Shown here: positions 13,571-35,038 of the stretch, piece after piece
Layout: every line of letters begins with the position of its first letter
Position numbering within the stretch: position 1 is the first letter of the stretch
Source: Corallococcus exercitus
Lineage (GTDB): Bacteria; Myxococcota; Myxococcia; Myxococcales; Myxococcaceae
NCBI RefSeq assembly: GCF_042231735.1
Contig: NZ_CP102577.1
Coordinates: 2,911,281 to 2,975,280 of the forward strand
Direction: 5' to 3'
DNA: 64,000 nt
Made by a program: the position numbers and the translations under genes
The notes under the pieces: model-generated
Told to the model about the DNA's origin: nothing
What the model saw: only the letters and a program-made list of their open reading frames with translations
Databases searched by the model: none

Positions 13571-14009
13571 GGCGCGCCTCCGCCCCGCCCAGCCAGGGAA
13601 CGACGTCGCGGAAACCCGTTGGGTGCGAAAGGGGTCATGTTCGATTCCGGATCATGCCGTCTAACCCGTCCGCGGGCCAGCGGATGGACGGGGCTCTCCT
13701 GAGCGAGAGGGGTGAGGAAAGGCGCGCGACGTATACCCCGGCCCGGTGTTCTTCCTCCGGAATCCCGCACGCGCGTGACGGTCTGGTGACCGGGACCGCC
13801 TGCCCAGCCCCTTGATGGGGTGGAACAGCGCGAAAACAGTCAGGCTGTCACTTTCTTCCCTTACCACTCTTCCAACCTGGCCGGAGGCTGGCCGGGCAGG
13901 CAGGCGTCGGTGGCCGTTTCCGGCGGCCTTCGCGATCAGGATTGAGGCGGAAAGCAGGTGGGGCGTGGCCTCGCCCGCTTCCCGAGGGAGCGCGGTAGAG
14001 TGCGAAACC

Positions 14010-19822: not shown

Positions 19823-21535
19823 CTAGCAGTCCACCGGGCCTTTCAGGCTGGTAACGGTCGCTTCGATTTCTTCACACCCACCCAGGGTTTTCGCCCCGTG
19901 GGCCGCCAGCTTGATGCCCAGCACGTCCCCCACCGCCACGTCCGCCATGGAACGCACCACCACGCCATCCCGCTGGCGGAACGTCACCGCGTAGCCGCGC
20001 GACATCACCTTCAGGGGGCTCAGGGCGTCCAGCCGGCCCCCCAACCGTCCGAAGTGCGTCTGCGCGGACGACAGCATGCCCCGCTGCAGCTCCAGGAGCC
20101 GCGCCCGCGCCTGCGCCACCTTCGCCCGCTCGGCGGCCACCCGCGCCGTGGGTGACGCCCGCTCCAGGCCCAGCCGCGTGTCCGCCAGCGCACTCCGCCG
20201 CCGGGACACGCCCGCGCGCGCCGCCTCCGACAGGCGCATGGCCAGCTTCAAGAGGTGCGCCCGCTGCTCCGACAGCCGCGTCTGGGGCCGCGCCCGCTGC
20301 AGCCGCTCCTGGAGGCCGCGCAGCGTCTCCCGGTCCTGACGCACGCGGGGGCGCAGCACGCGCATCATCGCCTCCACCTGTTCGGACAGGTGCAGGCGCT
20401 GGTGGTTCACCTCGCGGCGGGGGTCCGGCAGCCGCGCGCGAAGCTGGCCCTGGCGCTCGCGCAGCTCCAGCACCCGCCGCTCCATGGCCCGGCGCAGCCG
20501 GCCGGACTGCGTGGCCAGCGTCAGCTCCAGGTCCGCCAGCACCGGCGCCAGCCGCTCCGCCGCCGCGCTGGGCGTGGGCGCGCGCAGGTCCGCGACGAAG
20601 TCGGAGATGGTGAAGTCGATTTCGTGGCCGATGGCGGACACCACCGGCACCGGCGAGGCGAAGATGGCGCGCGCCACCCGCTCCTCGTTGAACGTCCAGA
20701 GGTCCTCCACGGACCCTCCGCCGCGCGTCACGACGATGACGTCCACGTCGGTGCGCCCCAGCCGCTCGATGGCCCGCGCCACGTCCTCCGCGGAGCCCTC
20801 GCCCTGCACGCGCGCGTCCGCCAGCAGCACGCCCAGCCGGGGGTTGCGCGAGTGCAGCACGCGCAGGAAGTCCTGGAGCGCCGCGCCGGTGCGGCTCGTC
20901 ACGACGCCGATGCGCCGGGGCAGGAACGGCACGGGCCGGGGCGGCCGCACGCGCCGGTCTCCGATGAGCCCCTCCGCCGCCAGCCGCTGCTTGAGCTGCT
21001 CGAACGCGAGCGCCAGCGCGCCCTCGCCCACCGGCTCCAGCCGGGACACGATGAGGCTGTAGCGGCCCTGCGGCTCGTACAGGTCCACGCTGCCCTCGGC
21101 CAGCACCTCCATGCCGTCGCGCAGCGCGAAGCGCATCCGCCCCGCCATGGACGCCCACACCTTCGCGTCGATGGAGGCGTCCGCGTCCTTGAGCGTGAAG
21201 TACCAGTGGCCGCGCGCGTTGGCGCCCCGGAAGCTGGACACCTCGCCGCGCACCAGCACGCGCGGGAAGCGCGACTCCACCGTCTGCTTGATCTGCCGGG
21301 TGAGCTCGCCCACCGACAGCACCGTGCGCTCCGGGCGCGGCGGCGGGGTGACGGCGGCGAGGGGCGGCGCAGCGGCTTCCGCCACCGGCGCGGGCGGCGG
21401 GGCCACGGGCGGCTTGCTCGCGCTCGCGGCCTTCGCGGGAGGGGGGCGCAGGGGTGGCAGGAGCGACGTGCCGAACAGGTCGCCCTGCCCCGGCTCCTCG
21501 GCCGGGGGCGGCTCCATCCCCTTGCGCTTCTTCAT
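19823..21535 (-). CDS. xseA: Exodeoxyribonuclease VII large subunit with Pro/Ala-rich N-terminal extension
   Basis: Start MKKRKGMEPPP at 21535 (ATGA overlap with upstream FHA gene stop); OB-fold and catalytic regions (VVTSRTGAALQDF, VIVVTRGGGSVEDLWTFNEE). Confidence 0.85.
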   Translation of the reverse strand: MKKRKGMEPPPAEEPGQGDLFGTSLLPPLRPPPAKAASASKPPVAPPPAPVAEAAAPPLAAVTPPPRPERTVLSVGELTRQIKQTVESRFPRVLVRGEVSSFRGANARGHWYFTLKDADASIDAKVWASMAGRMRFALRDGMEVLAEGSVDLYEPQGRYSLIVSRLEPVGEGALALAFEQLKQRLAAEGLIGDRRVRPPRPVPFLPRRIGVVTSRTGAALQDFLRVLHSRNPRLGVLLADARVQGEGSAEDVARAIERLGRTDVDVIVVTRGGGSVEDLWTFNEERVARAIFASPVPVVSAIGHEIDFTISDFVADLRAPTPSAAAERLAPVLADLELTLATQSGRLRRAMERRVLELRERQGQLRARLPDPRREVNHQRLHLSEQVEAMMRVLRPRVRQDRETLRGLQERLQRARPQTRLSEQRAHLLKLAMRLSEAARAGVSRRRSALADTRLGLERASPTARVAAERAKVAQARARLLELQRGMLSSAQTHFGRLGGRLDALSPLKVMSRGYAVTFRQRDGVVVRSMADVAVGDVLGIKLAAHGAKTLGGCEEIEATVTSLKGPVDC

Positions 21536-23280
21536 CGCGACAGCTTCTCGACCCAGCCCTGGGCCTTGCCGTGCAGCTCGTCGTCGGGCGGCGTCATCGT
21601 GACGACGTCGCGGAACTTGGGCAGCGCGTCCTCGGGGCTGGAGTCCTTGATGGAGTAGGCCTGCATGTACAGGTCCTTCGCCTTGCCCTTGAGGTCGTTG
21701 ACGATGTTGGCGGCGCCCGTGTGGTTGGGGTCCGCCCGGAGCGCGTTGCGGGCGGCCTCCATGGCGCGCGACCACTGGCCGGCGGCCTTCGCGGCCGCGG
21801 CGCTCTTGTAATAGATGGTCGCCGCGCGGGTGCCCGCGTTGCGCCCCATCTTGCTGCCGCGCCCGTCGGTGATGTCCTTGTCCAGCGCGAGCAGCCGGGT
21901 GAGGCCCTTGGCTTCCAGCTCCTCCAGCTTCTTGTAGAGGTTGCCGAACTCCGTCACCTGCCCCATCAGCTGCTTGCACTGCGGCGTCTTGGCCGCGCAC
22001 GCGTTGAGGATGGCCACCGCGCCGGACGTGTCACCGTCGCGGAAGCGGTCCACGGCGGGCTCCCACGGCTTGGGCGCCGCGGCCACGCGCACCGGATCCG
22101 GACGGGTCAGGTCCGCGATGACGCGCACGGCGTCGTCGTTGACGAGCTTGCCGTCGCGGTGCTCCGGGAAGGCCGCGAGCACGTCGTCGGTGATGGCCTT
22201 GGCCTGCTGCACGTTCTCCAGCTGGCGGGTGTCCAGCAGCTGCTTGGCCTCCTTCGTGCGCTTGTCGGCGGCGTCCGTCAGGTTCTTGCGCGCCGTCTTC
22301 AGCTGCTCGTAGAGCTGGGTGTCGCTGCTCACCTTCGCGATGGACGCCTTCGCGCTGGCGAGCTCCCCCTTGTCCAACGCCGCCTGGGCCGTGGCCAGGT
22401 GGTTCTGGTTGGGGATCTCCCGCTCCGAGGCCTTGAGGTAGTCCTCCACGCCGGGGTAGTCCGGCGCCTGCGCGTGGAGTTCCTCCAGCTTCGCCTTGGC
22501 CTGCTGCCACTGGCCCTCGCGCACCAGGTTCTTGGCCTCCTGGAAGAGGCCCCCCAGCTGCTCGCGGTACTGGCGCTGCTCCGCCTCGATGCGGCCCTGC
22601 TCCTCCTGCTGCTGCCGCATGCGCGAGCGCGCGACGCCCAGGCCCGCGAAGAGCAACACCAGCACGGCGGCGCCCGCGAGCTTCATCCGCATGCGCCTGC
22701 GCTGGATCTCCGGCGTGAGCTCCGCGGCGGCCGCGGCCCGCGCCGTCTGCGGGCGCGCACGGCCCTCGCGGGCAGGACGCGAGGGCACGGCCGTGGGACC
22801 GCGCCCTCCCGCCGTGGACGGACGGGGCCGGGGGCCGGAGGGGGCCTGCACCTTGGCGGTGCTGTTGGCGGTGTCCTCGTAGCGCAGCTCCGAGTCCCCC
22901 AGCGTGATGACGTCGCCGTTGGCGAGCAGCGTCTCCTCGGAGATGGGCTCGCCGTTGACGATGGTCCCGTTGCCGGAGCCCATGTCGCTGACCATCCAGC
23001 CGGCGGACTCCTTGCGCAGCGTCACGTGCTTGCGGGAGACGGACGTGTCCTGGATGCAGATGGGGTTGTCGGTGGAGCGGCCGACCGTGTACTCGAGCTC
23101 GGAGAGCGAGAACTCCTCACCCTCCATGGGGCCGGCGATGACGACGAGCTTCGCGGGGCGGGCCGCGGCGGCCCCGGCGGAGGACCGGCGGGCCGGCGCG
23201 CGCTGTCCGGTCCCGGAGGCGGGCGTACCGGATGTAGGCCGTCGGCGGGCGGGGGGTGGTGCGTTCGACATGGCGGTCAC
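21532..23280 (-). CDS. FHA-domain protein with one TM segment and coiled-coil/TPR-like C-terminal region
   Basis: FHA: KLVVIAGPMEGEEFSLSELEYTVGRSTDNPICIQDTSVSRKHVTL...GSGNGTIVNG; TM AAVLVLLFAGLGV. Confidence 0.75.
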   Translation of the reverse strand: MTAMSNAPPPARRRPTSGTPASGTGQRAPARRSSAGAAAARPAKLVVIAGPMEGEEFSLSELEYTVGRSTDNPICIQDTSVSRKHVTLRKESAGWMVSDMGSGNGTIVNGEPISEETLLANGDVITLGDSELRYEDTANSTAKVQAPSGPRPRPSTAGGRGPTAVPSRPAREGRARPQTARAAAAAELTPEIQRRRMRMKLAGAAVLVLLFAGLGVARSRMRQQQEEQGRIEAEQRQYREQLGGLFQEAKNLVREGQWQQAKAKLEELHAQAPDYPGVEDYLKASEREIPNQNHLATAQAALDKGELASAKASIAKVSSDTQLYEQLKTARKNLTDAADKRTKEAKQLLDTRQLENVQQAKAITDDVLAAFPEHRDGKLVNDDAVRVIADLTRPDPVRVAAAPKPWEPAVDRFRDGDTSGAVAILNACAAKTPQCKQLMGQVTEFGNLYKKLEELEAKGLTRLLALDKDITDGRGSKMGRNAGTRAATIYYKSAAAAKAAGQWSRAMEAARNALRADPNHTGAANIVNDLKGKAKDLYMQAYSIKDSSPEDALPKFRDVVTMTPPDDELHGKAQGWVEKLSR

Positions 23281-23307
23281 CGCGTCCTGCTGAGGGGGGC
23301 ACGGGCC

Positions 23308-26163
23308 CTAAAGCTCGTGCTCATAGGCTTTTTCCAGCCCGAGATTGTGGCAGCGATGCTCGGCGGTAGGGAAGCGTCTCCGCACGTCTTCGAGGGTCGC
23401 GACCGCATCCCGTCGGCTGCGGAACTGAACGGCCCGCTGGAATTGCATCATCAGCTGCCCGCAGCGGTGGTCCAGCTCCGTTGAAATCTGGGCGATCCGC
23501 TCCCGCACGTCGTCGTACAGCTCCGGCTTGTCGTCGAGCGCTTCCAGGGTGATCCACGCGGCGCGGTACTCCCGCCACGCCTTGAACAGGTTCTCCGCGC
23601 CCACGTCCTTCAGCTCGTAGAAGCGGGCTCCGGCCTTCGCGGACTCCCGGGCGGAAGCCACCAGCTGGTCCGGCGGCAGCTCGGGCACCGGGATGACCTC
23701 CAGGCGCAGGTTCCAGATGCGCCAGGGGTCGCGGCCGGGCGGGTTGAGGGCGTTGTCGAAGAGCAGCTGGTTGTTGGCGTTGCGGCGCAGGAGGCTGGGG
23801 GGCAGCACCTGCTCCAGCTCGCGCTCGGCCGTCTGCGCCGTGTCCGGGGGCACCCAGCCCAGGGACACGCCGTTGAGGGACAGGTTGACCTCGTCCCGGG
23901 CGATGTTGCTGGCCTGGTAGTGCAGCACCGCCACCGCGCGCGTGGGGGACACGAAGCGGAAGTCGAAGAGCTTGTCGTCGGCGTGCACCCAGCGCACGCC
24001 CTCACCCAGGCCGAAGGAGTCCGTCACCGGATCCAGGCCCAGCTTGAAGGGCTCGCGGCCGGGGAGGCGGATCGCCGAGGGCACCGCGAGCGCCACGAGC
24101 AGCGTCACCACCGCCAGCGCGCCCAGCCCCGCCAGCGACGCGAAGCCGATGCGCCGGGGCAGCGACTGGCGCTGCCAGAAGAGGAGGAACCGGCCCTTGA
24201 GCGTCTTGCCCAGCTGACGCCGCTGGCGGGCCTTGTCGGCGGCGGACGACGGTTCAATCTTCGCGACGACCGTCACCGGGCCCTTGGGCACGGGCGCGAG
24301 GGCGGAGGTTTCCGGGCCAGGAGGGAGGGACTGGGGGGCGTCGCCCTCCGCCGCCGGGACGAGCGCGGGGGCCAGCAGCGGCGCCTCACCGGGCAGCGGT
24401 CCGGCGTCCAGCTTCGGCGGAGACGCGGACCGGTTCCGGCCCACGAGCGTCACGGGCTCCGGCTCCGGCTCCCGCGAAGGCGGCGGGACGGGGGGGCTCC
24501 AGGCCGGCGGGGGCGCCAGGGCCGAAGCAGCGGGCGCGAGCGCGTCCTGGCCCGCGAAGGTGGGCGAGGCCCGGGTCTCCTCCGGAGGGTCCGCGGGGAT
24601 GTCGTCGTCCTGGCCGACGAAGGTCGCCGGCTCGGGGGCGCCCGGCGCGGGGGGAGCCGCCGCCGCGAGGCCAATGCGCATCGGCCTGGCCACGAGCGGG
24701 CTGACCGGGGTGATGGGCCGGAGGTCGAGGACGGTCCGCTCCTCGGGCTCCTCCAGCGTCGGCGCGGGCAGCACGGGCGCAGCGTCCAGCGGCGGTGCGG
24801 CCTCCACCAGGGGCGGCGCTTCCGGGGTCGCCGGAATCGCCATCAGCGTGCGCTCCTCGGGCTCGTCCAGGTCCGGGACGGGCAGCACGGGAGCAAATGC
24901 GGAGGGGGGCTCGGGCGAGTCCACGGTGGGAATCGCCATCAGCGTGTGCTCCGCGGGCTCGTCCAGGTCCGGGACGGGCAGCACGGGCGCCAGCGCGGAG
25001 GCAGGCACGGGCGAGTCCACGGTGGGAATCGCCATCAGCGTGCGCTCCTCGGGCTCGTCCGGCATCACCGGGGCGAGCTCCACGGGAGGCGACGCGACGG
25101 GAGGCCGTGCCGGCGGGGGCGGAGCCATGAGCCCCGGCGGCGTCGCCAACGGCAGGCCGGACACGGAAGCCGCGGACGCACGCGCGGCACCACGCCCCAG
25201 CTCGGGACGGTTCAGGGCGGGCGCGCCGACACCAGGCAGGTTCGCGACGGCCTTGCGCTTCGGGGAGGCCGCCGGCTCCACGGGGCCGGGAGCCGGGGAC
25301 GCCCCCACCGCGGGCAGTCCCGACGCCGAGGCTCTTCCCGATGAGGAAGCGCCCAGCACCGGAGGCCTGGCCGGAACTCCGGCCACGTGGTTTCCCGGCG
25401 CCGAAGCCCCCAACACGGGAGGCCCGGAAGGGGCCCTGTTCGAAGCAGCTGCGTCAGCGACAAGCCCTGGCGCCAAGGGCCCCAGCACCGGAGGTCCCGC
25501 GGGAGCCTTGGCCGGGGTGGCCGCCCCCGGCGCGACGGCACCCAGCACCGGAGGTCCAGCGGAAGGCTTCGCCGCCACGGACGCTCCCGGAACGGAAGCC
25601 CCCAGCACCGGAGGTCCCACGGGAGTCCTGGCCGGCGCGGCCGCTACCGGCGGAGCGGCACCGACCGCCGGCAGATCCGGAGCGGAGGGCCGCTTCGGCG
25701 TGGCGCTCGCGACCACCGGCATCGCGGGAGCCGCCCCACCCTTCGCGGCGGGCACGGCCATCCCGGGGCGCGGAAGGGACGCGGGCCGCGCCATCGCGGG
25801 CATCGACTGCTGGTAGCTCGTGGGCGCCGCTTCGATCTCCGCGAGCGAGGCCTGCTCCACGCCCTGCGGCGACACCTTCGCGTGCGGCGGCGCGAGCGCC
25901 CGCCGGATGGGCCGGGTGACGTCGTCGTCATCCTCCGGGGCCACCCAGACGAACGTGAACTCCACCGGACCGACGGTGATGCGGTCGCCGTCGCGCAGCT
26001 GCTTCTCACCGGCCAGCGGCTGGCCGTTCAGCTGCGTGCCGTTCGCGCTGCCGACGTCCTCGGCGAAGTAACGCCCCTCCCTCGCCGTGATGCGGGCATG
26101 ACGCCGGGAGACACCGTGGTCATGCAGCACCAGGTCGTTCTCCGAGGTCCGGCCGATCTTCAC
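23308..26163 (-). CDS. Large FHA-domain membrane protein (951 aa): FHA, ~550-aa Pro/Ala-rich repetitive linker, TM helix, ~280-aa C-terminal domain. Annotated start (GTG 26161) probably too short
   Basis: (V)KIGRTSENDLVLHDHGVSRRHARI...GSANGTQLNG; TM GFASLAGLGALAVVTLLVALAV. Confidence 0.75.
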   Translation of the reverse strand: MKIGRTSENDLVLHDHGVSRRHARITAREGRYFAEDVGSANGTQLNGQPLAGEKQLRDGDRITVGPVEFTFVWVAPEDDDDVTRPIRRALAPPHAKVSPQGVEQASLAEIEAAPTSYQQSMPAMARPASLPRPGMAVPAAKGGAAPAMPVVASATPKRPSAPDLPAVGAAPPVAAAPARTPVGPPVLGASVPGASVAAKPSAGPPVLGAVAPGAATPAKAPAGPPVLGPLAPGLVADAAASNRAPSGPPVLGASAPGNHVAGVPARPPVLGASSSGRASASGLPAVGASPAPGPVEPAASPKRKAVANLPGVGAPALNRPELGRGAARASAASVSGLPLATPPGLMAPPPPARPPVASPPVELAPVMPDEPEERTLMAIPTVDSPVPASALAPVLPVPDLDEPAEHTLMAIPTVDSPEPPSAFAPVLPVPDLDEPEERTLMAIPATPEAPPLVEAAPPLDAAPVLPAPTLEEPEERTVLDLRPITPVSPLVARPMRIGLAAAAPPAPGAPEPATFVGQDDDIPADPPEETRASPTFAGQDALAPAASALAPPPAWSPPVPPPSREPEPEPVTLVGRNRSASPPKLDAGPLPGEAPLLAPALVPAAEGDAPQSLPPGPETSALAPVPKGPVTVVAKIEPSSAADKARQRRQLGKTLKGRFLLFWQRQSLPRRIGFASLAGLGALAVVTLLVALAVPSAIRLPGREPFKLGLDPVTDSFGLGEGVRWVHADDKLFDFRFVSPTRAVAVLHYQASNIARDEVNLSLNGVSLGWVPPDTAQTAERELEQVLPPSLLRRNANNQLLFDNALNPPGRDPWRIWNLRLEVIPVPELPPDQLVASARESAKAGARFYELKDVGAENLFKAWREYRAAWITLEALDDKPELYDDVRERIAQISTELDHRCGQLMMQFQRAVQFRSRRDAVATLEDVRRRFPTAEHRCHNLGLEKAYEHEL
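24834..25075. repeat. 96-nt direct tandem repeat (~2.5 copies) within FHA-protein linker (encodes PVLPVPDLDEPEERTLMAIPTVDSP units)
   Basis: 'gaatcgccatcagcgtg(c/t)gctc...gagtccacggtgg' recurs at 24834, 24930, 25026. Confidence 0.8.
25340..25660. repeat. 60-nt degenerate tandem repeats (encode 20-aa GPPVLGA units) in same FHA gene
   Basis: 'cccagcaccggaggtcc' recurs at ~25357, 25478, 25538, 25598. Confidence 0.7.
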
Positions 26164-26236
26164 CTCGGCCTGCTCGAAGGCGAGCTCCCGTCCGACCTGG
26201 AGCCCCTGGGTGATGGTGAGCAGGATGGGCAGAGGA

Positions 26237-27127
26237 CTAGCCCCCGACGTTGCCGAACATGAACTGGAACACGATGGGCCCGAAGAGCACCATGAACACC
26301 GTCGGGAAGATGCAGGCGATGAGCGGGAACAGCATCTTCACCGGGGCCTCGCCGGCCAGCTTCTCCGCGCGCTGCGTGCGGTCGATGCGCATCTGCGTGG
26401 ACTGGATGCGCAGCACCTTGCCCAGGCTCGTGCCCATCTTGTCCGCCTGGATCAGCGCCGTGACGAACGTCGTCAGGGACGGCAGGTCCACGCGCACGAT
26501 CATGCTCTTGAGCGCCTCTTCACGCGTCTTGCCCATCTTGAGCTGCTTGAGCACCAGCTGCAGCTCCTCGCGCAGCGGGCCCTGGCGGCCCTTCTCCACC
26601 ACCTTCGCCAGCGCGCCCGTGAAGTCCATGCCCGCTTCCACCGACAGCGTCAGCAGGTCCAGGTTGTACGGAAGCGCGCGGCTGATGGCCAGATGACGGC
26701 GCTTCACCTGATCGTTCAACCAGATGAGCGGATAGAACAGGCCCAGCAGCATCACCAGCAGCGACCAGGCCAGGTTCATCCCGATGCCGTTGACCACGAA
26801 CAGGCCGGCCAGCAGGGCGAAGAAGGCGCTGATCTCCTGCAGCGCCATGATGTCCTCGGGCTTGTACTGCGACGGCTCGCCCGCCTTGATGAGCTTGCGG
26901 CGCGTCTTGGACTCGTAGCCCGGCCACATGAAGCGCCGGTTCATCGCGCCCAGCTTGCGGATGGCGACGGAGCCCGCGCCCTTCACGCCGCCCGCGGACT
27001 CGTCCCGGACTTCCGACAGGAAGCGCTCCAGGACGTTGGAGTACAGGCCGATGCCCAGGAACGCCACCGCGCCCGCGGTCAGCAGGGCCGAGCCGCCCAT
27101 CAGCAGAAATGTCAGGACTTCCTGCAC
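26237..27127 (-). CDS. tadC: Type II secretion system F-family platform protein (TadC-like)
   Basis: T2SSF domain, 3 TM clusters, 296 aa. Confidence 0.8.
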   Translation of the reverse strand: MQEVLTFLLMGGSALLTAGAVAFLGIGLYSNVLERFLSEVRDESAGGVKGAGSVAIRKLGAMNRRFMWPGYESKTRRKLIKAGEPSQYKPEDIMALQEISAFFALLAGLFVVNGIGMNLAWSLLVMLLGLFYPLIWLNDQVKRRHLAISRALPYNLDLLTLSVEAGMDFTGALAKVVEKGRQGPLREELQLVLKQLKMGKTREEALKSMIVRVDLPSLTTFVTALIQADKMGTSLGKVLRIQSTQMRIDRTQRAEKLAGEAPVKMLFPLIACIFPTVFMVLFGPIVFQFMFGNVGG

Positions 27128-27140
27128 GGTGCGCCTCGTT

Positions 27141-27986
27141 TCAGATGTCGATGTTGACGATGCGCCGGATGATGAGGATGCCCATGATCTCCATGATGGC
27201 GATCAGGGTCACCAGGATGTAGCCGAAGAAGTGGTTCATCATCGGCTCCATCAGGTCCGGACGCATGTAGTTGAGCACCAGGCCCAGCACCGCCGGCATG
27301 GCCGCGACGATCCACCCTTGAAGCTTGCCCTGGGACGTCAGCGCGTCGATCTTGCCTTCCAGACGGAAGCGCTCGCGGATCACCGTGGAGATGGTCTCGA
27401 ACATCTCCGCCATGTTGCCGCCCAGCTGGCGCGCGATGTTGGTGGACACGACCACCAGCTCCAGGTCGTCGCTGCCCACGCGGCGGCCCATGTTGATGAG
27501 CGCCTCCTCCAGCGGCACGCCCAGCTTCACTTCCTTCACGAAGAGGCCGAACTCCTGGGACAGGGGCGGCATCGCCTCGCGCGCCACGTGCTCGATGGCC
27601 TGGGGGAACGTGAGGCCCGCCTTGAACGCGTTGGCCATGGCCTGCAGCGCGTCCACCAGCTGCACGTTGAACTTCTTGATGCGGCGCTTGCGGTAGTGCT
27701 TCACGAGCAGCATCGGCAGGAAGAAGCCGAAGATGGTCGCCAGCACCGCCAGGATGGGGTTGAAGATGATGTAGCTGAGGATGCCCAGGAGGCACATGCA
27801 GGCGATGTTGAGGATCAACATCTGCCGCGCGTCGATGAAGAGGAACATGTCGCTCAAGTCGTTCATCGACTTGGCGACGTACCGCTCCTGGTACTGCTCG
27901 TACGCCTTCGACAGGACGCTGAAGATCACCAGGCTGAAGAAGAACACCGAGCCGGTGACGAGGAGGAGGACGATACCTGCGAGCAT
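27141..27986 (-). CDS. tadB: Type II secretion system F-family platform protein (TadB-like)
   Basis: T2SSF domain, TM topology typical of TadB, 281 aa. Confidence 0.8.
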   Translation of the reverse strand: MLAGIVLLLVTGSVFFFSLVIFSVLSKAYEQYQERYVAKSMNDLSDMFLFIDARQMLILNIACMCLLGILSYIIFNPILAVLATIFGFFLPMLLVKHYRKRRIKKFNVQLVDALQAMANAFKAGLTFPQAIEHVAREAMPPLSQEFGLFVKEVKLGVPLEEALINMGRRVGSDDLELVVVSTNIARQLGGNMAEMFETISTVIRERFRLEGKIDALTSQGKLQGWIVAAMPAVLGLVLNYMRPDLMEPMMNHFFGYILVTLIAIMEIMGILIIRRIVNIDI

Positions 27987-28063
27987 GGGCGCGAATCCCC
28001 GGGGGATGAGGGAGGGGTCGGCAGGGCCGCTTCAGCTTAAGGAAGCGGCCCCGCGCGCGACGA

Positions 28064-28882
28064 CTACGGAGAGCCGGCCGAGGCCTTCTCGCCGCTGCCA
28101 CTGCCCTTGATGATCTGGATGATCTCCCGGCGCTTCTGCTCCAGCACGCGGGTGCGCTCGCCGGACAGGAGCGTGCTGATGGTGGCGCGGCCGCGCTCCT
28201 CGATGAGGTCCACGTCGTCCTCGTTGCGCAGGGACAGCGTCAGCTGCCCCAGCTCCGCCGCCAGCACCAGGATCTCCGCCTCTTCCGGCAGCACCATCAG
28301 CGAGACGTTGTTGTACTCGCGCTGGTTCTCCGGGATGAGGTTGATGTTCGTGGTGCCGGTGATTTTGCCCGTGGCGACCACGATGATGTTCTGCAGCAGC
28401 GTCACGGCGACGCTCTCGTCCGTCTGCGGATCACGGAACGTGCCGATGATGTCCACGTGGTCGTTGGGGCGGATCCACCCGCCCACGGACGTGGTCTGCT
28501 TCGCCTCGATGGTGATGGCGCGCGCCTTCTTCTGCACCTTCGTGGACAGGCGCTCGGCGGCCTTCGTCGTCTCGAACTGGCTCCAGAGGATGGGGTCGCC
28601 GGCCTGCAGCGCCACCAGCACCTTCTGGTTCACGATGTAGTTGGCGGAGTCCGGCTTCACCACCGACGAGGTGACGAACTGCTCCGGCACGGAGCGCTGG
28701 GAGATCATCTCGTACGTGATGACCGAACCCTCGGGCATGTCCTGGCCCGCCACCACCACGGGCACCAGGTTCCACCCGCGGCGCACATCCGATTCCTTCT
28801 TCTTGATGGCCGAGTAGGCCACGATGCCGGCGAGCAAACCGAGCACCAGTGCGACGACGAGCGGGGTCTTACCCTTCAACAT
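28064..28882 (-). CDS. cpaB: Flp pilus assembly protein CpaB/RcpC
   Basis: N-terminal TM anchor, SAF/RcpC domain architecture, 272 aa. Confidence 0.8.
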   Translation of the reverse strand: MLKGKTPLVVALVLGLLAGIVAYSAIKKKESDVRRGWNLVPVVVAGQDMPEGSVITYEMISQRSVPEQFVTSSVVKPDSANYIVNQKVLVALQAGDPILWSQFETTKAAERLSTKVQKKARAITIEAKQTTSVGGWIRPNDHVDIIGTFRDPQTDESVAVTLLQNIIVVATGKITGTTNINLIPENQREYNNVSLMVLPEEAEILVLAAELGQLTLSLRNEDDVDLIEERGRATISTLLSGERTRVLEQKRREIIQIIKGSGSGEKASAGSP

Positions 28883-29115
28883 GGTTCTAGGTCCTCCAGA
28901 ACGGTGGGGCGCCGTCGTGGCGGCAGGACAGCTTTGGACGAGGGGGCGATGCCAGGGCGCGAACGGGGCGGAATGTTATCCATGCCCCACGCCGGGTGTC
29001 AAAACCACCTCTCGAGACAAAGCGGAATCCCGGGACACCCGGGGCTCGCGGCGCCTGCCCGCCCGGCAGGGAGGACGGCGCGTCACACGGGCCTGATCCG
29101 CGGCCTCTGCGTCGC

Positions 29116-29418
29116 TCAGGGGAACGGCAGGTTCAGCACGAAGTAGAACGAGTCGTAATAGATCTGGTACGCCTCGAGGAACAGGTCGATGACGTTGGTC
29201 TGCTTGTCCTCGTTCCAGCGGATCTTCACCGTGGCGCCGATGACGAGCCCGACGATCAACACCCAGTTGATCATCGAGTACTCCACCATGGCCTGGCCAC
29301 GACGGGCCCGGCGCGGGGAGCGCGGCGGTGACTTCCGGGGGCTGTTCACGGGGGGAGCGTGCACGTCCGACGTCATGTCCCCATTATCCAGGACCCGGGC
29401 CCCGGACACATCGGTCAT
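29116..29418 (-). CDS. Putative Flp/Fap-type pilin (class III prepilin) with long leader
   Basis: ...RRARRG|QAMVEYSMINWVLIVGLVIGATVK resembles Flp G/xxxxEY processing motif followed by a hydrophobic helix; start uncertain (M1 or M15). Confidence 0.5.
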   Translation of the reverse strand: MTDVSGARVLDNGDMTSDVHAPPVNSPRKSPPRSPRRARRGQAMVEYSMINWVLIVGLVIGATVKIRWNEDKQTNVIDLFLEAYQIYYDSFYFVLNLPFP

Positions 29419-29435: not shown

Positions 29436-30872
29436 CTACTGCGCGGGCTTGGAGGGGGCGGCCTTGGCAGGAGCCGACGCGGGCGCCGCGGGAGGCGTGG
29501 CCTGACGCAGGCGGCGCTGGGCCAGCTGGGCCGCGCTGGAGCCGGGGGCCTCGGTGATGATCTGCCCGCAGACGGTGGCGGCTTCCTGGCTCCGGCCCTG
29601 GACGGACTCGGACTCGCAGAGCCGTGAGAGCAGCGCCAGCCGCTCGCTGCCCGTGGCTCCGGCCGCGAGCGCGGCGCGCAGCAGCTGCGCTTCCCGGGCG
29701 CGGTTCCCCTGGTTGGCGGCGGCCTGGGCCTGGGCGGCCAGGTCGCGCGACGTCATCGCCTCGTCAGCGGAGGCGGACTTCTCCACGGGCCTGGGCTTCG
29801 CGGCCTCGACGCGGGCAGCGGTCTCCTGCTTCGGTTCCGCGGACGGGAGCGTCGTGGTCGCCGGCGGGGACTGCCGGTCCAGCGCGCCCGTGGGGGCGGG
29901 AGCCATGGCCTCGGCCATGGGCGCGGAGGCCGCGGAAGGAGGAGGCGGCGGGGGCGCGCCGGCGGCCATGCCTTCGGCGTCTTCGTCCATGGAGAGCCCA
30001 CGGCCATAGGACGCACCGCCCAGCCGCAGGGAGTCGGTCTTCGCGACCTTCCCCTTGTCGCTGCTTCCACCCGGTGCGCGGCGCGGCGCGGAGGCGTCCT
30101 TCATGGCGAGGGCGCTGTCGGCCTCCTCTTCCTTCGGAGGCGACTGCTGCGCGGCCGGGGCCTGCTCGAGAGAAGCGAATCCGTCGTCCGCGTCCCGGAC
30201 GGCCTTGGACATCTTCTTCCTCGGTGCGTCGGTGTTCGCGCGGCGCTGCTCCAGCAGCGCGCCACCGCTGCCCGCGTTCATCCAATCCGACGGACGGACG
30301 TTGGCCGCGCCCTTGAGCTCCGCGCGCGCTTCGGCCTGCTTCCGTTCGGCGAGCTCATCCACCACCGGCTCGGACGCGGCCGGCTCCGGAGGCGCGCTCG
30401 AAGGCGCAGGCGGGGGCATCAGGGCTCTCGAAGCGCGGTCGCCTCGAGCGTCCGCCTCCTTCGCCGCCTCCGCCACCACCGGGCTGGAGGCCTTCTGCGA
30501 CAGGTTTGGCTCCAGGTGGAGGTTCTCGCTGACCGTCAACGTGAGGAGGCCGAAGGTGCTCACCGTGGCCAGGCCCACCGCGGGCAGCAGCCAGCGGCGC
30601 CAGCGCGAGGGCTTCGGCTCGGGCCCGGCGGCGGCGCGGCGCGCGGACTGCTGCGCGTACGCGAGCAGCGACTCCAGGCCCGCGTCCGGCGCGGGTTCTG
30701 ACGACAGCTGCGCCATGGTGCTCCGCACGCCGCGGATGTCCGCCAGCGCCTTCGTGCAGCGCGCGCAGCCCTGGACGTGCTGCTCCAGCGACTGGGCCTC
30801 CGACGCGGGCAGCTCGCCATAGGCGAAGTCGAGGAGCCGGTCCTCGTGCGCGTGGGCATTCTGGGCACTCAT
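29436..30872 (-). CDS. Membrane anti-sigma factor (zf-HC2/ChrR-like N-terminus, TM, Ala/Pro-rich periplasmic region)
   Basis: HVQGCARCTKAL zinc-finger motif, TM WRRWLLPAVGLATVSTFGLLTL; ATGA overlap with ECF sigma gene. Confidence 0.7.
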   Translation of the reverse strand: MSAQNAHAHEDRLLDFAYGELPASEAQSLEQHVQGCARCTKALADIRGVRSTMAQLSSEPAPDAGLESLLAYAQQSARRAAAGPEPKPSRWRRWLLPAVGLATVSTFGLLTLTVSENLHLEPNLSQKASSPVVAEAAKEADARGDRASRALMPPPAPSSAPPEPAASEPVVDELAERKQAEARAELKGAANVRPSDWMNAGSGGALLEQRRANTDAPRKKMSKAVRDADDGFASLEQAPAAQQSPPKEEEADSALAMKDASAPRRAPGGSSDKGKVAKTDSLRLGGASYGRGLSMDEDAEGMAAGAPPPPPPSAASAPMAEAMAPAPTGALDRQSPPATTTLPSAEPKQETAARVEAAKPRPVEKSASADEAMTSRDLAAQAQAAANQGNRAREAQLLRAALAAGATGSERLALLSRLCESESVQGRSQEAATVCGQIITEAPGSSAAQLAQRRLRQATPPAAPASAPAKAAPSKPAQ

Positions 30873-31516
30873 CCCGCCACCGTCCTTCCATCCTCCGACA
30901 GGTCGCCATCCACGCCCAGCTCTCCCAGGCGGCGGCGCAGGCCCTCCAGCGCGTAGCGCATCCGGCTCTTCACCGTGTTCTCGGACACGCCCGTCACCTC
31001 GGCGATCTCCTTGAACGGGATGCCGCTGTACTCACGCAGCACGAACACCTCGCGCTGCTCCTCCGGCAGGGCCGACAGGGCCCGCTCCAGCAGGGGCCGC
31101 AGGCGCGCGTTGTGCGCCCCGCGCTCCGGACTGGCGCCGGCATCCGGCAGCCCCTCGCCCAGCGGACGTCCCTCGTCCCCGTCGGTACCCGCCGCGGGGG
31201 CTTCCAGGGACGTGGCCTGGCGGTAGCTCTCTTTGCGCGTGCTGTCCACGCAGAGGTTCCTCGCGATGGTGTACAGCCAGGTCGTGAACCGGGCCTTGGG
31301 CTCGTATTCCCGGGCGCTGCGGACCACCTTGAGCCACGTCTCCTGCAGCACGTCCTCCGCCCGTGCCCGCTGCCCCACGAAGCGCAGGATGAAGTTGAAC
31401 ACCGGCGCGCGGTGCTTGCGCACCAACGCTTCGAACGCGCGCGCGTCTCCCGCCTGGAAGGCGAGCATCAGCTGCTCGTCTGAGGTTTCGGGTGCCAAAC
31501 TTCCCCCAGTGCCCAT
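30869..31516 (-). CDS. ECF (RpoE-like) sigma-70 family sigma factor
   Basis: Region 2 (VFNFILRFVG...DVLQETWLKV) and region 4 (EVFVLREYSGIPFKEIAEVTGVSENTVKSRMRYA); start ATG 31516 (MGTGGS). Confidence 0.85.
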   Translation of the reverse strand: MGTGGSLAPETSDEQLMLAFQAGDARAFEALVRKHRAPVFNFILRFVGQRARAEDVLQETWLKVVRSAREYEPKARFTTWLYTIARNLCVDSTRKESYRQATSLEAPAAGTDGDEGRPLGEGLPDAGASPERGAHNARLRPLLERALSALPEEQREVFVLREYSGIPFKEIAEVTGVSENTVKSRMRYALEGLRRRLGELGVDGDLSEDGRTVAG

Positions 31517-31580
31517 GAAGCCACGGGTGCCATCCCCTTCACCGCCCACGGCCTGTAACGGACAGCCGTGCGCGAAAGGT

Positions 31581-31994
31581 CTATTCCGGCCGTGGCCGCC
31601 GGTAAGTGGCGAGAATGACAGGGACCGCCACCCCTGTCACCAGAAGTGCCTGCGCCAGCAGCACCGCCGGCAGCGGGCGCTGCACGTGCACGTACAGCGA
31701 GCGGCCAAGCCCCACCCCCAACAGGACGCCTGTCAGCGTGCGCAGCCAGTTGGAACCGGACGCGGGCCGGAAGCGTCCCACCGCCCAGTCCACCAGCGCG
31801 GGCAGCGTGAGGGCCAGCACCACCGGCACGTCCCGCTCCCACTGGAGCGGCGCCTTCAGCGCGAACAGCCCCAGGAACACGGCGGCGAGCACCGGGTACG
31901 TGCCCAGGCACCGCGCGCACACGCGCACGCCCGCGAGCACGTACGTGCGGTTGTACTCATCCGGGTGATGATGGCTGAGCCAGAACACCGGCAC
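31581..31994 (-). CDS. DUF2085 family membrane protein
   Basis: [28 protein letters not shown] signature; probable GTG start (31994/31988) overlapping 3' end of upstream ABC gene. Confidence 0.5.
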
Positions 31995-34042: not shown

Positions 34043-34046
<4 letters not shown>

Positions 34047-35038
34047 TTCTGGGCCAGTTCCTCCAGGAACTCCGCCTCCTGGATGAGCCCCTTGCGGATG
34101 AGCAGGCGGATGAGGCTCGCGACCATGCGCGCGGGCTTCACCTTCTCCGTGTCCAGGCTGGCCTCCTCGCCGCGCGAGATGCGGTCGATGTCGTCCAGCA
34201 CCGCCAGGTCCTCCTCGGAGAAGTCCGGCTTGGGCGTGAGCGCCACGGACGGCTTCGAGCCCTGCGCGGCGCCGCCGAAGAGCACCACCGGCACGCGCGG
34301 CTTGCTCGGGTCCTCCGGTTCGGAGGGCGGCGGGGGCGGCGGCCGGGCCGCGGCGGGAGGAGGCGGCGGGGGCTTCGGGGCCTTGGGACGGGGCTTGGAG
34401 CCCAGGATGTCCTCCAGCACCTCCGCGCCGTCGACGCCCGAGTCGTGCGGCGGCGGAGGAGGCAGGTCCCAGTCCAGCGCCGGCGGCGCGGGCGGGCGCG
34501 GCGGCGCCGGGGGCCGCGCGGCGGCGGGAGGCGGCGGCGGCAGGATGTCCGGCGAATCGTCTTCGTCCATGTCCATCGGTTCAGCCTCCACGATGTCCAG
34601 GGGCTCGCCCCGGCCGCGCGCGAGCGCCTGCTCCATGTCATCCGGCGCGGCGACGAACACCTTGAGCTGCTTGCGCAGCTGGAAGCGCAGCTCGTCCACC
34701 AGCGTCAGGTTGCCCGGGTCCTCCACCGCGACGTGGATCCGCTCACTGCGGCCTTCCTGCTCCGACGCGAAGAGGAGCACCCGGTGCTCGTTCTGGAAGT
34801 CCATGGACACCAGCGAGGACACCCCGTGCGGGATGTACTCGGGGATCTCCACGAACGGCAGCGCGTGCTGCGCCGCCAGCGCCCGCGCGATGTCCCGGCC
34901 GGTGCACAGGCCCATGGACACCAGCACCTCGCCCAGCTTGCGGCCCTGGCCGCGACGCCCGGAGGCCAGGGCCTGCTTCACCTGCTCGTCCGTCACCACT
35001 CCGGCCTGGACGAGGAGTTCACCAATCTTCTTGCGCAT
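34043..35038 (-). CDS. Standalone T2SSE_N/MshEN-domain protein (predicted c-di-GMP receptor) with Pro-rich linker and C-terminal amphipathic helix
   Basis: [54 protein letters not shown] = tandem MshEN 24-residue motifs; ATGA overlap with downstream ABC ATPase. Confidence 0.7.

What the first reader, a model, noticed from the sequence alone, without database searches (positions are those of the whole stretch)
21532..29418. Compact Tad/Kil-like pilus module lacking ATPase, secretin and peptidase, fused to two FHA-domain proteins
Six co-directional, tightly packed minus-strand genes encode a Flp-like prepilin, CpaB/RcpC, TadB, TadC and two FHA-domain proteins, one of them 951 aa with a TM helix. 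The whole set sits directly downstream of an ECF sigma/anti-sigma pair. No TadA/CpaF ATPase, secretin or prepilin peptidase lies within 30 kb, so essential parts must be encoded in trans. From memory, this architecture and its position about 11 genes downstream of bacN match 'kil cluster 2' of the Tad-like contact-dependent prey-killing apparatus described in M. xanthus in 2021. If it is an orthologue in another species, or an uncharacterised paralogue, its role is open. The FHA proteins imply phospho-Thr (Ser/Thr kinase) control of the machine.
Basis: partly seen in the sequence, partly recalled or inferred. Interest (0 to 1): 0.7.

Follow-up and report, generated by a model that had tools for sequence, protein, structure and literature searches.

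The report
Corallococcus copy of Kil predation-pilus cluster II
This is the Corallococcus version of a gene cluster already studied in Myxococcus xanthus, where it builds the membrane base of a pilus that kills prey bacteria on contact; it is a known system in a trimmed-down form, not a new one.

Summary
The window comes from a Corallococcus species. Region 21532-29418 is the syntenic orthologue of M. xanthus kil gene cluster II (MXAN_4648-4661). It encodes the Flp-type adapter pilin KilK, KilB (CpaB/RcpC), KilG and KilH (TadB/TadC), and two FHA proteins matching MXAN_4649 and MXAN_4648. The flanks match too: ECF sigma/anti-sigma (MXAN_4661-like) on one side, xseAB ... bacNOP-padC on the other. 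No ATPase, secretin or prepilin peptidase lies in the 64 kb. Published tables place KilA/C/D/F about 88 genes away in C. coralloides.

Corrections:
- The real kilG is 27141-27986. The longer ORF 27112-28101 is in the wrong frame.
- Both FHA proteins, not one, have a single transmembrane helix.
- The long FHA gene probably starts 69 nt further upstream, at a CTG codon.
- kilB has its own housekeeping-type promoter, invariant across genera.

Differences from M. xanthus:
- All Corallococcus loci lack the Tip4 minor-pilin genes (kilL4/N4/M4) and four accessory genes. Only kilK remains.
- The MXAN_4649-like protein is about twice as long because of a Pro/Ala-rich linker.

Novelty is low. This is an orthologue of a characterised system, and the role of the FHA proteins is still open.

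The parts
30869..31549 (-). ECF-type sigma factor gene. The start is uncertain; homologues are annotated at 215 aa, which would put it near 31516.
   Evidence: Sigma70_r2 6.9e-19 and Sigma70_r4_2 4.8e-17. NCBIfam PRK12513 270 bits against a cut-off of 206. It sits next to the anti-sigma gene in the related loci that reach that far.
29436..30872 (-). Membrane anti-sigma factor (zf-HC2, one TM helix at about aa 94-114, Ala/Pro-rich C-terminal part). Counterpart of MXAN_4661. It overlaps the sigma gene stop by 4 nt.
   Evidence: zf-HC2 2.3e-05. NF052375 anti-sigma 9.7e-10. TM scan and composition. MXAN_4661 is listed as 'putative zinc-finger' in cluster II.
29116..29418 (-). kilK orthologue: a Flp-type prepilin with cleavage motif RRG/QAMVEY and a predicted 59-aa mature protein. 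In M. xanthus this is the minor 'adapter' pilin.
   Evidence: Sequence. 69-83% identity to the kilK position of Myxococcus, Pyxidicoccus and Citreicoccus loci. Direct comparison with the M. xanthus AM003 KilK ORF. KilK function from PMC12075869. No HMM hit.
28973..29002 (-). Sigma-70-type promoter-like site TTGACA-18 nt-TAACAT, about 90 nt upstream of the kilB ATG.
   Evidence: It is the only such site in 13 kb, against 0.2 expected from shuffles. Both hexamers and their flanks are invariant in Corallococcus, Citreicoccus, Myxococcus, Pyxidicoccus, Hyalangium, Archangium and Cystobacter, although the upstream gene differs (alignment A3).
28064..28882 (-). kilB (CpaB/RcpC family, N-terminal TM/signal anchor).
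   Evidence: RcpC 6.8e-23 and SAF 3.5e-07. TIGR03177 1.5e-56. 99% identical to Corallococcus sp. CA054B CpaB and 91-93% to Myxococcus loci. The closest solved relative is RcpC, 9gzr, 1.8e-09.
27141..27986 (-). kilG (TadB-like inner-membrane platform protein, 281 aa).
   Evidence: T2SSF 9e-18. 94-96% identical to Myxococcus loci. pN/pS 0.09-0.11. The overlapping 329-aa ORF 27112-28101 is a wrong-frame artefact.
26237..27127 (-). kilH (TadC-like inner-membrane platform protein, 296 aa).
   Evidence: T2SSF 2.1e-19. 82-83% identical to Myxococcus loci. pN/pS 0.19-0.35.
23308..26232 (-). Long bitopic FHA protein, orthologue of MXAN_4649. Order of parts: cytoplasmic FHA domain, a Pro/Ala-rich repeat linker of about 600 aa, a TM helix (about aa 680-702 in the 951-aa numbering), and a periplasmic beta-sandwich plus helical domain. 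The first ATG/GTG/TTG is at 26163; the likely true start is a CTG at 26232.
   Evidence: FHA 2.6e-19. With the 23-aa extension the Yop-YscD_cpl match rises from 55.7 to 66.6 bits and covers profile positions 2-91 instead of 20-91. The extension is conserved in protein sequence across Corallococcus, and a GTG occupies that position in a Myxococcus locus. TM and composition. Tandem repeats. C-terminal model pLDDT 88.6.
21532..23280 (-). Bitopic FHA-TM-helical/TPR protein, orthologue of MXAN_4648. FHA at aa 47-133, TM at about aa 197-219, and an all-helical C-terminal part of about 360 aa that is predicted periplasmic.
   Evidence: FHA 5.7e-19, Yop-YscD_cpl 4.4e-20 and weak TPR hits. TM. 59-61% identical to Myxococcus loci over the full length. 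Single-sequence model is all-helical, with pLDDT above 90 for the first ~170 residues. The FHA domain is closest to the pThr-binding GarA/OdhI type.

Best explanation
Region 21532-29418, together with the sigma/anti-sigma pair up to 31549, is the Corallococcus orthologue of M. xanthus kil gene cluster II.

What it encodes:
- KilG and KilH form the inner-membrane platform of the Kil Tad-like pilus machine.
- KilB is the periplasmic CpaB/RcpC partner of the secretin.
- KilK is the small Flp-type adapter pilin.
- Two membrane-anchored FHA proteins complete the set.

What is encoded elsewhere: the motor ATPase KilF, secretin KilC, peptidase KilA, KilD, the major pilin KilP and the tip minor pilins.

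[quoted passage not shown] They polymerise a short KilP pilus primed by a KilLMN tip plus KilK, and this is needed for killing the prey.

FHA proteins (inferred): both have a cytoplasmic FHA domain that keeps the canonical phospho-threonine-binding residues, one TM helix and a periplasmic domain. I propose they act as trans-membrane scaffolds or signal couplers. They would link events in the periplasm to phospho-Thr-dependent recruitment of the FHA-bearing cytoplasmic parts (KilF, KilD).

How the Corallococcus version differs: it has lost the Tip4 genes and four accessory genes from this locus, and its long FHA protein carries a greatly expanded disordered linker.
For: Shown:
- Domain content of all genes.
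- Source genus Corallococcus.
- Gene-for-gene match to the published MXAN_4648-4661 table.
- Identity to the M. xanthus AM003 locus (L034): KilB 93%, KilG 95%, KilH 82%, FHA-TPR 60%; KilK 71% or 78%.
- L034 is anchored to DK1622 by KilN4, which is 97% identical to MXAN_4659.
- Conserved flanks: xseA, xseB, response regulator, polyprenyl synthase, dxs ... bacNOP-padC on one side, and the sigma/anti-sigma pair, DUF2085 and ABC genes on the other.
- Purifying selection on kilB, kilG and kilH, pN/pS 0.09-0.25 within Corallococcus.
- A promoter upstream of kilB that is invariant across seven genera.
- No ATPase, secretin or peptidase in the window.
- Herrou et al. 2025, Supplementary Data 1, lists KilA/C/D/F (gene index 4932-4935), KilB/G/H (4842-4844), KilP, Tip1 and a Tip2 gene in C. 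coralloides.
- Function of KilB/G/H/K in M. xanthus: deletion mutants lose contact-dependent killing, and KilG-NG forms foci at prey contacts (PMC8460266). KilK is the adapter for Tip1, Tip2 and Tip4 (PMC12075869).

FHA proteins:
- Both carry the GR...SR(R/K)H...NGT motifs.
- Each has a single TM helix.
- The long protein's periplasmic domain models confidently (pLDDT 88.6) as a beta-sandwich plus helical bundle.
Against: - No function was tested here. The predation role is transferred by orthology from a sister genus.
- The cluster I genes, kilP and the tip clusters could not be checked in the source genome, because only 64 kb is available.
- The Flp-like gene matches no curated HMM.
- The proposed role of the FHA proteins rests on domain architecture only. 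No paper I could find reports a phenotype for MXAN_4648 or MXAN_4649, and a 2026 preprint still calls the spatial determinants of Kil assembly unknown.
- Fold searches of the periplasmic domain gave only generic TPR hits and weak CBM/jelly-roll hits. They did not show the SctD/PrgH-like ring motifs that an earlier annotation suggested.
Confidence: 0.88

Rival explanations
1. A classical Tad/Flp adhesion pilus locus (Caulobacter or Aggregatibacter type) that looks incomplete only because of assembly or window limits.
For: KilB, KilG and KilH belong to the general CpaB/RcpC and T2SSF families. KilB's nearest solved relative is RcpC of a Tad system.
Against: The same gene order, without ATPase or secretin, recurs in more than 15 independent Corallococcus assemblies, on contigs up to 0.48 Mb, and in complete genomes of related genera. 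Identity to the M. xanthus kil locus is 82-95%. The split into two clusters is the published hallmark of Kil.
Confidence: 0.02
2. A decaying remnant. Having lost the Tip4 genes and four accessory genes, the Corallococcus cluster II would be on its way to pseudogenisation and no longer functional.
For: Seven genes present in the Myxococcus-type loci (kilM4, kilN4, kilL4 and the MXAN_4657, 4656, 4654 and 4653 homologues) are absent from every Corallococcus locus; six of them (all but MXAN_4653) are also found in the Hyalangium and Archangium loci. The long FHA gene lacks a canonical start codon in front of its conserved N-terminus.
Against: All retained ORFs are intact. pN/pS is 0.09-0.25. KilG is 96-99% identical across Corallococcus species. 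The kilB promoter is invariant. The retained pilin is KilK, which in M. xanthus also serves Tip1 and Tip2, and Tip1 genes and a Tip2 gene are listed for C. coralloides.
Confidence: 0.04
3. An ECF-sigma-controlled envelope module in which the adjacent sigma/anti-sigma pair is the main regulator of the six genes.
For: The sigma/anti-sigma pair is conserved next to the locus in the related loci that reach that far. In Corallococcus the anti-sigma stop codon lies only 18 nt from kilK. MXAN_4661 was counted in cluster II by Seef et al..
Against: kilB and the genes downstream have their own sigma-70-type promoter, invariant across genera. In Myxococcus about 9.4 kb and eight genes separate the sigma gene from kilB. 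No ECF-type promoter was identified.
Confidence: 0.15

Closest known systems
M. xanthus kil gene cluster II (MXAN_4648-4661) of the Kil Tad-like contact-dependent killing apparatus (Seef et al. 2021, PMC8460266; Herrou et al. 2025, PMC12075869)
   Same: Same genes in the same order and orientation: FHA-TPR (4648), FHA (4649), KilH, KilG, KilB, KilK and the zf-HC2 anti-sigma (4661). Same flanks (xseAB ... bacNOP-padC). Identity is 82-95% for KilB, KilG and KilH. The same conserved promoter lies upstream of kilB. The ATPase, secretin and peptidase are encoded elsewhere.
   Different: - It lacks kilL4, kilN4 and kilM4 (Tip4) and the MXAN_4653, 4654, 4656 and 4657 homologues. The anti-sigma gene therefore abuts kilK, and kilK lies 233 nt from kilB. 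The sigma-to-kilB distance is about 2.0 kb against about 9.4 kb.
- The MXAN_4649 orthologue is 951-974 aa against about 460-475 aa, through a Pro/Ala-rich repeat linker.
- The start codon of that gene appears to be CTG instead of GTG.
- In C. coralloides, clusters I and II are about 88 genes apart, against about 1500 in M. xanthus.
Canonical Tad/Flp pilus loci (Aggregatibacter tad, Caulobacter cpa, Pseudomonas rcp/tad)
   Same: Homologous TadB/TadC (T2SSF), CpaB/RcpC and Flp-type pilin with a G/XXXXEY cleavage motif.
   Different: No contiguous tadZ-tadA-rcpA-tadV, and no TadD, RcpB or TadG here. FHA-domain membrane proteins are attached. By orthology the function is predation, not adhesion.
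Kil-like Tad systems of Bdellovibrio and Bradymonas
   Same: Tad-derived machines in predators, genetically dispersed, with FHA and TPR regulators near the tad genes.
   Different: They are much more distant in sequence and have a different gene order. Bdellovibrio has a TadZ-TadA fusion and polar control by RomR.
FHA-TM scaffold proteins of other envelope machines (T3SS SctD/PrgH/YscD, T6SS TagH/Fha, gliding GltG)
   Same: N-terminal cytoplasmic FHA-type domain, a single TM helix and a periplasmic domain. Weak profile matches to Yop-YscD_cpl, TagH, GltG and SctD, limited to the FHA region.
   Different: All of those hits fall below the family cut-offs. The modelled periplasmic domain is a jelly-roll-like beta-sandwich plus a TPR-like bundle, not SctD ring-building motifs.

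Membership tests
Kil system, gene cluster II (M. xanthus MXAN_4648-4661) | Adjacent kilB (CpaB/RcpC), kilG and kilH (two T2SSF platform genes) orthologous to MXAN_4652, 4651 and 4650 | tested here: met
   Pfam and NCBIfam hits. Identity to the M. xanthus AM003 locus is 93%, 95% and 82%. That locus carries MXAN_4659 at 97% identity.
Kil system, gene cluster II (M. xanthus MXAN_4648-4661) | Two FHA-domain genes directly downstream of kilH (MXAN_4649 FHA; MXAN_4648 FHA+TPR) | tested here: met
   FHA 2.6e-19 and 5.7e-19, with TPR hits in the second. [quoted passage not shown]
Kil system, gene cluster II (M. xanthus MXAN_4648-4661) | Flp-type pilin KilK (MXAN_4655) in the cluster | tested here: met
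   G/QAMVEY motif. 78% identity to M. xanthus KilK. Sequences compared directly.
Kil system, gene cluster II (M. xanthus MXAN_4648-4661) | Tip4 minor pilins KilL4/KilN4/KilM4 (MXAN_4658-4660) and the MXAN_4653/4654/4656/4657 genes between the anti-sigma gene and kilB | tested here: not met
   tblastn with the M. xanthus proteins finds none of them in the window or in any of 15 Corallococcus loci, whereas Myxococcus, Pyxidicoccus, Citreicoccus, Hyalangium, Archangium and Cystobacter loci have them (MXAN_4653 only in the first three). A KilN4 database search returned no Corallococcus sensu stricto protein among the best 120 of 214 hits. These genes are accessory in M. xanthus (Tips are redundant), so their absence marks a variant and does not exclude membership.
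Kil system, gene cluster II (M. xanthus MXAN_4648-4661) | Chromosomal context: zf-HC2 anti-sigma (MXAN_4661) on one side, xseA/xseB ... TPR (MXAN_4639) ... bacNOP-padC on the other | tested here: met
   The same flanks are seen in related loci.
Kil system as a whole | Cluster I in trans (KilA peptidase, KilC secretin, FHA-fused KilF ATPase, KilD) plus the major pilin KilP | not testable with these tools
   They are not in the window, and the source genome is not available. They are reported for C. coralloides genomes in Herrou et al. 2025, Supplementary Data 1.
Kil system as a whole | Required for contact-dependent prey killing; assembles at prey contact sites | not testable with these tools
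   Shown only for M. xanthus. It needs genetics and microscopy in Corallococcus.
Canonical Tad/Flp pilus operon | Contiguous operon containing the TadA/CpaF ATPase, RcpA/CpaC secretin, TadV/CpaA peptidase and TadZ/CpaE | tested here: not met
   None of these domains occurs in any ORF of the 64-kb window.
T3SS SctD/PrgH family (earlier annotation of MXAN_4649) | Full-length match including periplasmic ring-building motifs | tested here: not met

The most novel reading that the evidence does not exclude
Two linked readings remain open.

(1) Corallococcus as a genus may run a Tip4-less Kil machine. In M. xanthus, Tip4 is the only tip with killing activity independent of the needleless T3SS*. Corallococcus killing would then depend entirely on the T3SS*, or on tips not yet recognised.

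(2) The two bitopic FHA proteins may be the missing trans-envelope link that positions Kil assembly at prey contacts. One has a periplasmic jelly-roll/CBM-like plus TPR-like domain; the other has a long periplasmic helical domain. They would couple a periplasmic cue to phospho-Thr-dependent recruitment of KilF and KilD. The doubled disordered linker in Corallococcus would change the reach or valency of this scaffold.
Probability: 0.3. Interest if true: 0.5.

Novelty: new member of a known kind. Interest (0 to 1): 0.25.

Why it matters
The finding mainly confirms that the Kil predation pilus is conserved, with strong purifying selection, in another predatory myxobacterial genus. It also gives a corrected gene map for this locus.

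Three points could be useful to people working on Kil:
- Natural loss of Tip4 with retention of KilK fits KilK's published role as adapter for several tips. It offers a natural test of T3SS*-dependence of killing.
- An invariant housekeeping-type promoter upstream of kilB argues that the platform genes are made constitutively rather than under the neighbouring ECF sigma. This fits with assembly, not expression, being what prey contact triggers.
- Both uncharacterised FHA proteins are bitopic membrane proteins with intact pThr-binding motifs. That makes them concrete candidates for the still unknown spatial and signalling determinants of Kil assembly.

None of this is a new kind of system.

Tried and rejected
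- The 329-aa ORF 27112-28101 as TadB: rejected. It has no family hit even at E=10 and an Arg/Pro/Gly-rich translation. The T2SSF hit lies in the other frame, 27141-27986.
- Look-ups of other window proteins to find the exact source contig: nothing on record. The exact genome was not identified. The anti-sigma gene is at most 84% identical to the sampled Corallococcus species.
- Reading Tip4 presence or absence for Corallococcus from Herrou et al. Supplementary Data 1: the stored table is cut after the first Tip2 column.
- Single-sequence model of the FHA-TPR periplasmic part: all-helical, confident only for the first ~170 residues. No fold search was run because only generic helical-repeat hits were expected.
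- The one KilN4 hit named 'Corallococcus' (P0173, 'C. macrosporus'): it comes from CP002830.1, a 9.0-Mb genome, and sits alone outside cluster II. From my own knowledge this organism is classed with Myxococcus by others. NCBI keeps it in Corallococcus, so this is a caveat, not proof.
- Terminator scan: nothing above the shuffle expectation.

Full report
**Observation**

The window is about 72% G+C. Minus-strand ORFs at 21532-29418 encode the following proteins.
- A 100-aa Flp-like protein at 29116-29418. Its sequence reads ...RRARRG/QAMVEYSMINWVLIVGLVIGATV..., which is the G/XXXXEY prepilin motif followed by a hydrophobic helix.
- KilB/CpaB at 28064-28882: RcpC 6.8e-23, TIGR03177 1.5e-56.
- A TadB-like protein.
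- A TadC-like protein at 26237-27127: T2SSF 2.1e-19.
- A 951-aa FHA protein at 23308-26163: FHA 2.6e-19.
- A 582-aa FHA+TPR protein at 21532-23280: FHA 5.7e-19.

The TadB-like gene needed a correction. The longest ORF in that stretch (27112-28101, 329 aa) has no family hit even at E=10 and an implausible Arg/Pro-rich translation. The real gene is 27141-27986 in another frame (281 aa, T2SSF 9e-18).

An ECF sigma gene (30869-31549) and a zf-HC2 anti-sigma gene (29436-30872) lie directly upstream.

Pfam scans of about 55 high-GC3 ORFs over the whole 64 kb found no T2SSE ATPase, secretin, prepilin peptidase, TadE or TadG.

**Source and orthology**

KilB is 99% identical to CpaB of Corallococcus sp. 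CA054B. The exact protein occurs in several Corallococcus assemblies. The window is therefore from a Corallococcus species. The exact genome was not found: the anti-sigma gene is at most 84% identical to those sampled.

Seef et al. 2021 (PMC8460266, supplementary file 1) list M. xanthus kil cluster II as follows.

| Locus tag | Product |
|---|---|
| MXAN_4648 | FHA+TPR |
| MXAN_4649 | FHA |
| MXAN_4650 | KilH |
| MXAN_4651 | KilG |
| MXAN_4652 | KilB |
| MXAN_4653, 4654 | unknown |
| MXAN_4655 | KilK |
| MXAN_4656, 4657 | unknown |
| MXAN_4658 | KilL |
| MXAN_4659 | TadG-like |
| MXAN_4660 | KilM |
| MXAN_4661 | zinc-finger protein |

I fetched 80 related loci with a KilB alignment and compared them by tblastn. 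Against M. xanthus AM003 (L034) the window proteins are 93% (KilB), 95% (KilG), 82% (KilH), 60% (FHA-TPR) and 58% (C-terminal domain of the long FHA protein) identical. KilK is 71% by the window query and 78% by the L034 KilK query. L034 is the MXAN_4648-4661 locus, because its KilN4 is 97% identical to MXAN_4659 of DK1622.

The flanks also agree. Below the FHA-TPR gene lie xseA, xseB, a response regulator, polyprenyl synthase, dxs, FtsJ, an unannotated ORF, a hybrid kinase, a TPR protein (MXAN_4639-like) and a hydrolase. Then come two bactofilins (7921-8310 and 6812-7528) and a PadC-like ParB_N protein.

The interpretation 'orthologue of kil cluster 2 in another species' is supported.

**Missing parts**

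Herrou et al. 2025 (PMC12075869, Supplementary Data 1) list these gene indices for C. coralloides DSM 2259:
- KilH/G/B at 4842-4844
- KilD/F/C/A at 4932-4935
- KilP at 2355
- Tip1 at 7628-7630
- a Tip2 gene at 621

In this genus cluster I is thus about 88 genes from cluster II, just outside a 64-kb window. In M. xanthus the separation is about 1500 genes. Kil orthologues in Corallococcus are therefore already catalogued.

**Differences from M. xanthus**

tblastn with the M. xanthus proteins encoded between the anti-sigma gene and kilB shows three layouts.
- Myxococcus, Pyxidicoccus, Citreicoccus and Hyalangium carry kilM4-kilN4-kilL4-4657-4656-kilK-4654(-4653), with 8.7-9.5 kb between the sigma gene and kilB.
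- Archangium, Cystobacter and Vitiosangium carry the same block inverted.
- All 15 Corallococcus loci and the window carry only kilK, with about 2.0 kb between the sigma gene and kilB and 231-275 nt between kilK and kilB. (One further record labelled 'C. terminator BB12-2', L037, has the Myxococcus-type layout instead and is discussed under smaller points.)

A database search with KilN4 returned 214 hits. The named ones come from Myxococcus, Pyxidicoccus, Hyalangium, Archangium, Cystobacter, Melittangium, Aggregicoccus and Vitiosangium, down to 44% identity. None is from Corallococcus sensu stricto. The one 'C. macrosporus' hit comes from CP002830.1 and sits outside cluster II.

Corallococcus is nested among Tip4-bearing genera. 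The parsimonious reading is therefore two deletions that removed Tip4 and four accessory genes but kept kilK. This is inference, and a genome-wide check was not possible.

Keeping kilK makes sense, because in M. xanthus KilK is the adapter for Tip1, Tip2 and Tip4.

In M. xanthus, Tip4 is the only tip with T3SS*-independent killing activity. A Tip4-less genus is therefore a natural experiment.

Some deep-branching Myxococcaceae genomes and MAGs (for example L082) also have a compact sigma/anti-sigma-kilK-kilB layout.

**The retained genes look functional**

- pN/pS against other Corallococcus species is 0.09-0.25 for kilB, kilG and kilH.
- A sigma-70-type site, TTGACA-18-TAACAT, lies at 29002-28973. 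It is the only such site in 13 kb, against 0.2 expected by chance.
- Both hexamers and their flanks are invariant across seven genera, although the upstream gene differs.

I infer that kilB-kilG-kilH and the two FHA genes are transcribed from their own housekeeping-type promoter. Only kilK, 18 nt after the anti-sigma stop codon, is positioned for co-transcription with the sigma/anti-sigma pair.

**The FHA proteins**

Both keep the canonical pThr-binding residues (GR ... SR(R/K)H ... NGT). Each has one TM helix.

The long protein:
- Its FHA domain is cut short by the first ATG/GTG/TTG start. The 23 codons upstream (LPILLTITQGLQVGRELAFEQAE) are conserved in protein sequence across Corallococcus. 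In a Myxococcus locus they begin with a GTG exactly where Corallococcus has CTG.
- Adding them raises the Yop-YscD_cpl score from 55.7 to 66.6 bits and extends the match to profile position 2. The gene probably starts at CTG 26232, 4 nt after the kilH stop codon.
- Residues about 76-690 are 41% Pro+Ala and contain 96-bp and 60-bp tandem repeats.
- Orthologues in Myxococcus and Pyxidicoccus are only about 460-475 aa. The kilH-to-FHA-TPR spacing is about 950-1140 codons in Corallococcus against about 500 in Myxococcus.
- The C-terminal 272 aa have relatives only in Myxococcaceae (41 hits). They model at pLDDT 88.6 as a TM helix, an eight-strand beta-sandwich and a five-helix bundle.

The FHA-TPR protein has an all-helical C-terminal part of about 360 aa after its TM helix.

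Mechanistic proposal (inferred): these are bitopic scaffolds or signal couplers. They would link the periplasm to pThr-dependent recruitment of the FHA-bearing KilF and KilD.

No phenotype for MXAN_4648 or MXAN_4649 is published in the library I could search. A July 2026 preprint still calls the spatial determinants of Kil assembly unknown.

**Smaller points**

- Upstream of the sigma gene there is a block invariant at the nucleotide level. It contains the inverted repeat TGACAGGG/CCCTGTCA and overlaps the 3' end of the DUF2085 gene.
- Two stand-alone MshEN-domain proteins sit in a conserved block upstream.
- The record labelled 'C. terminator BB12-2' (L037) shows Myxococcus-type organisation.

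**Verdict**

It is the Corallococcus orthologue of a characterised system that is already tabulated for the genus.

The Tip4-less compact layout, the expanded FHA linker, the likely CTG start and the conserved kilB promoter are modest new details. Interest is low to moderate (0.25). The open question worth pursuing is the role of the two bitopic FHA proteins.

Noticed in passing
window 27112-28101 (-): The longest ORF over the kilG region (329 aa, GTG start) is a wrong-frame high-GC artefact with an Arg/Pro/Gly-rich translation and no family hit. The real kilG is 27141-27986. Choosing ORFs by length alone would mis-annotate this gene.
   Followed up: yes
window 26163-26232 (-): The long FHA gene has no ATG/GTG/TTG in front of its conserved N-terminal 23 residues. 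A CTG at 26232 occupies the position of the GTG start seen in a Myxococcus locus. Public Corallococcus annotations start at the internal GTG and so truncate the FHA domain.
   Followed up: yes
window 28973-29002 (-): A sigma-70-type promoter, TTGACA-18-TAACAT, lies upstream of kilB. It is invariant across seven myxobacterial genera even though the upstream gene differs.
   Followed up: yes
window ~31557-31641 (-), upstream of the ECF sigma gene: A block invariant at the nucleotide level, GTGACAG-N10-TCCCTGTCATTCTCGCCACTTAC ... TAGACC ... CCGTT, contains the inverted repeat TGACAGGG/CCCTGTCA. It overlaps the last codons and the stop codon of the DUF2085 gene. It is also conserved in Archangium loci where tblastn found no DUF2085 homologue upstream. 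It may be an operator or promoter of the sigma/anti-sigma unit.
   Followed up: partly
window 34043-35038 (-) and 35048-35800 (-): Two adjacent stand-alone MshEN-domain proteins (the N-terminal domain of GspE/PilB-type ATPases, without an ATPase domain). The block MshEN-MshEN-ABC-ABC-DUF2085-sigma-anti-sigma is conserved upstream of kil cluster II in Corallococcus and in deep-branching Myxococcaceae MAGs.
   Followed up: partly
window 24833-25060 and 25481-25662 (within the long FHA gene): Tandem repeats of 96 bp (2.4 copies, 91% matches) and 60 bp (3 copies) encode Pro/Ala-rich peptide repeats. The length of this linker varies widely between species: the kilH-to-FHA-TPR spacing is about 500 codons in most Myxococcus, 667 in M. 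eversor, about 950-1140 in Corallococcus and 1399 in M. dinghuensis.
   Followed up: partly
window 5293-8310 (-): A bacNOP-padC-like bactofilin/ParB_N cluster: bactofilins at 7921-8310 and 6812-7528, and a PadC-like protein at 5293-6825. A third bactofilin probably lies between them at about 7530-7900, which I did not scan.
   Followed up: partly
window 54036-63794 (+): A chemosensory cluster: a PAS-LuxR regulator, CheA-CheW (54875-57331), an MCP with a bacterial globin and a PAS domain (57315-59900), an ABC1 kinase-like protein, CheB and CheR.
   Followed up: no
L037 (JBLZWL010000017.1, labelled Corallococcus terminator BB12-2): This record has the Myxococcus-type organisation with Tip4, and its locus coordinates track M. 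eversor L041 closely. C. terminator CA054A (L012) has the compact Corallococcus layout. The label is probably wrong or the assembly mixed.
   Followed up: no
L085 (CP002830.1, 3594981-3617077): In this 9.0-Mb genome (named C. macrosporus by NCBI) a KilN4 homologue with 73% identity sits alone among unrelated genes (TetR regulators, glyoxalase, terpene synthase), away from kil cluster II.
   Followed up: no
L059, L074, L076, L077, L078: Some Myxococcaceae MAGs carry a second KilB-like gene (75-79% identity) with no kilG or kilH beside it, sometimes in the same MAG as a full cluster (L043 and L059; L047 and L076). These look like KilB paralogues of unknown role.
   Followed up: no
window 13779-15569 (+): A 596-aa ORF with high GC3 and no Pfam hit lies between the hybrid histidine kinase and the FtsJ-like gene.
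   Followed up: no
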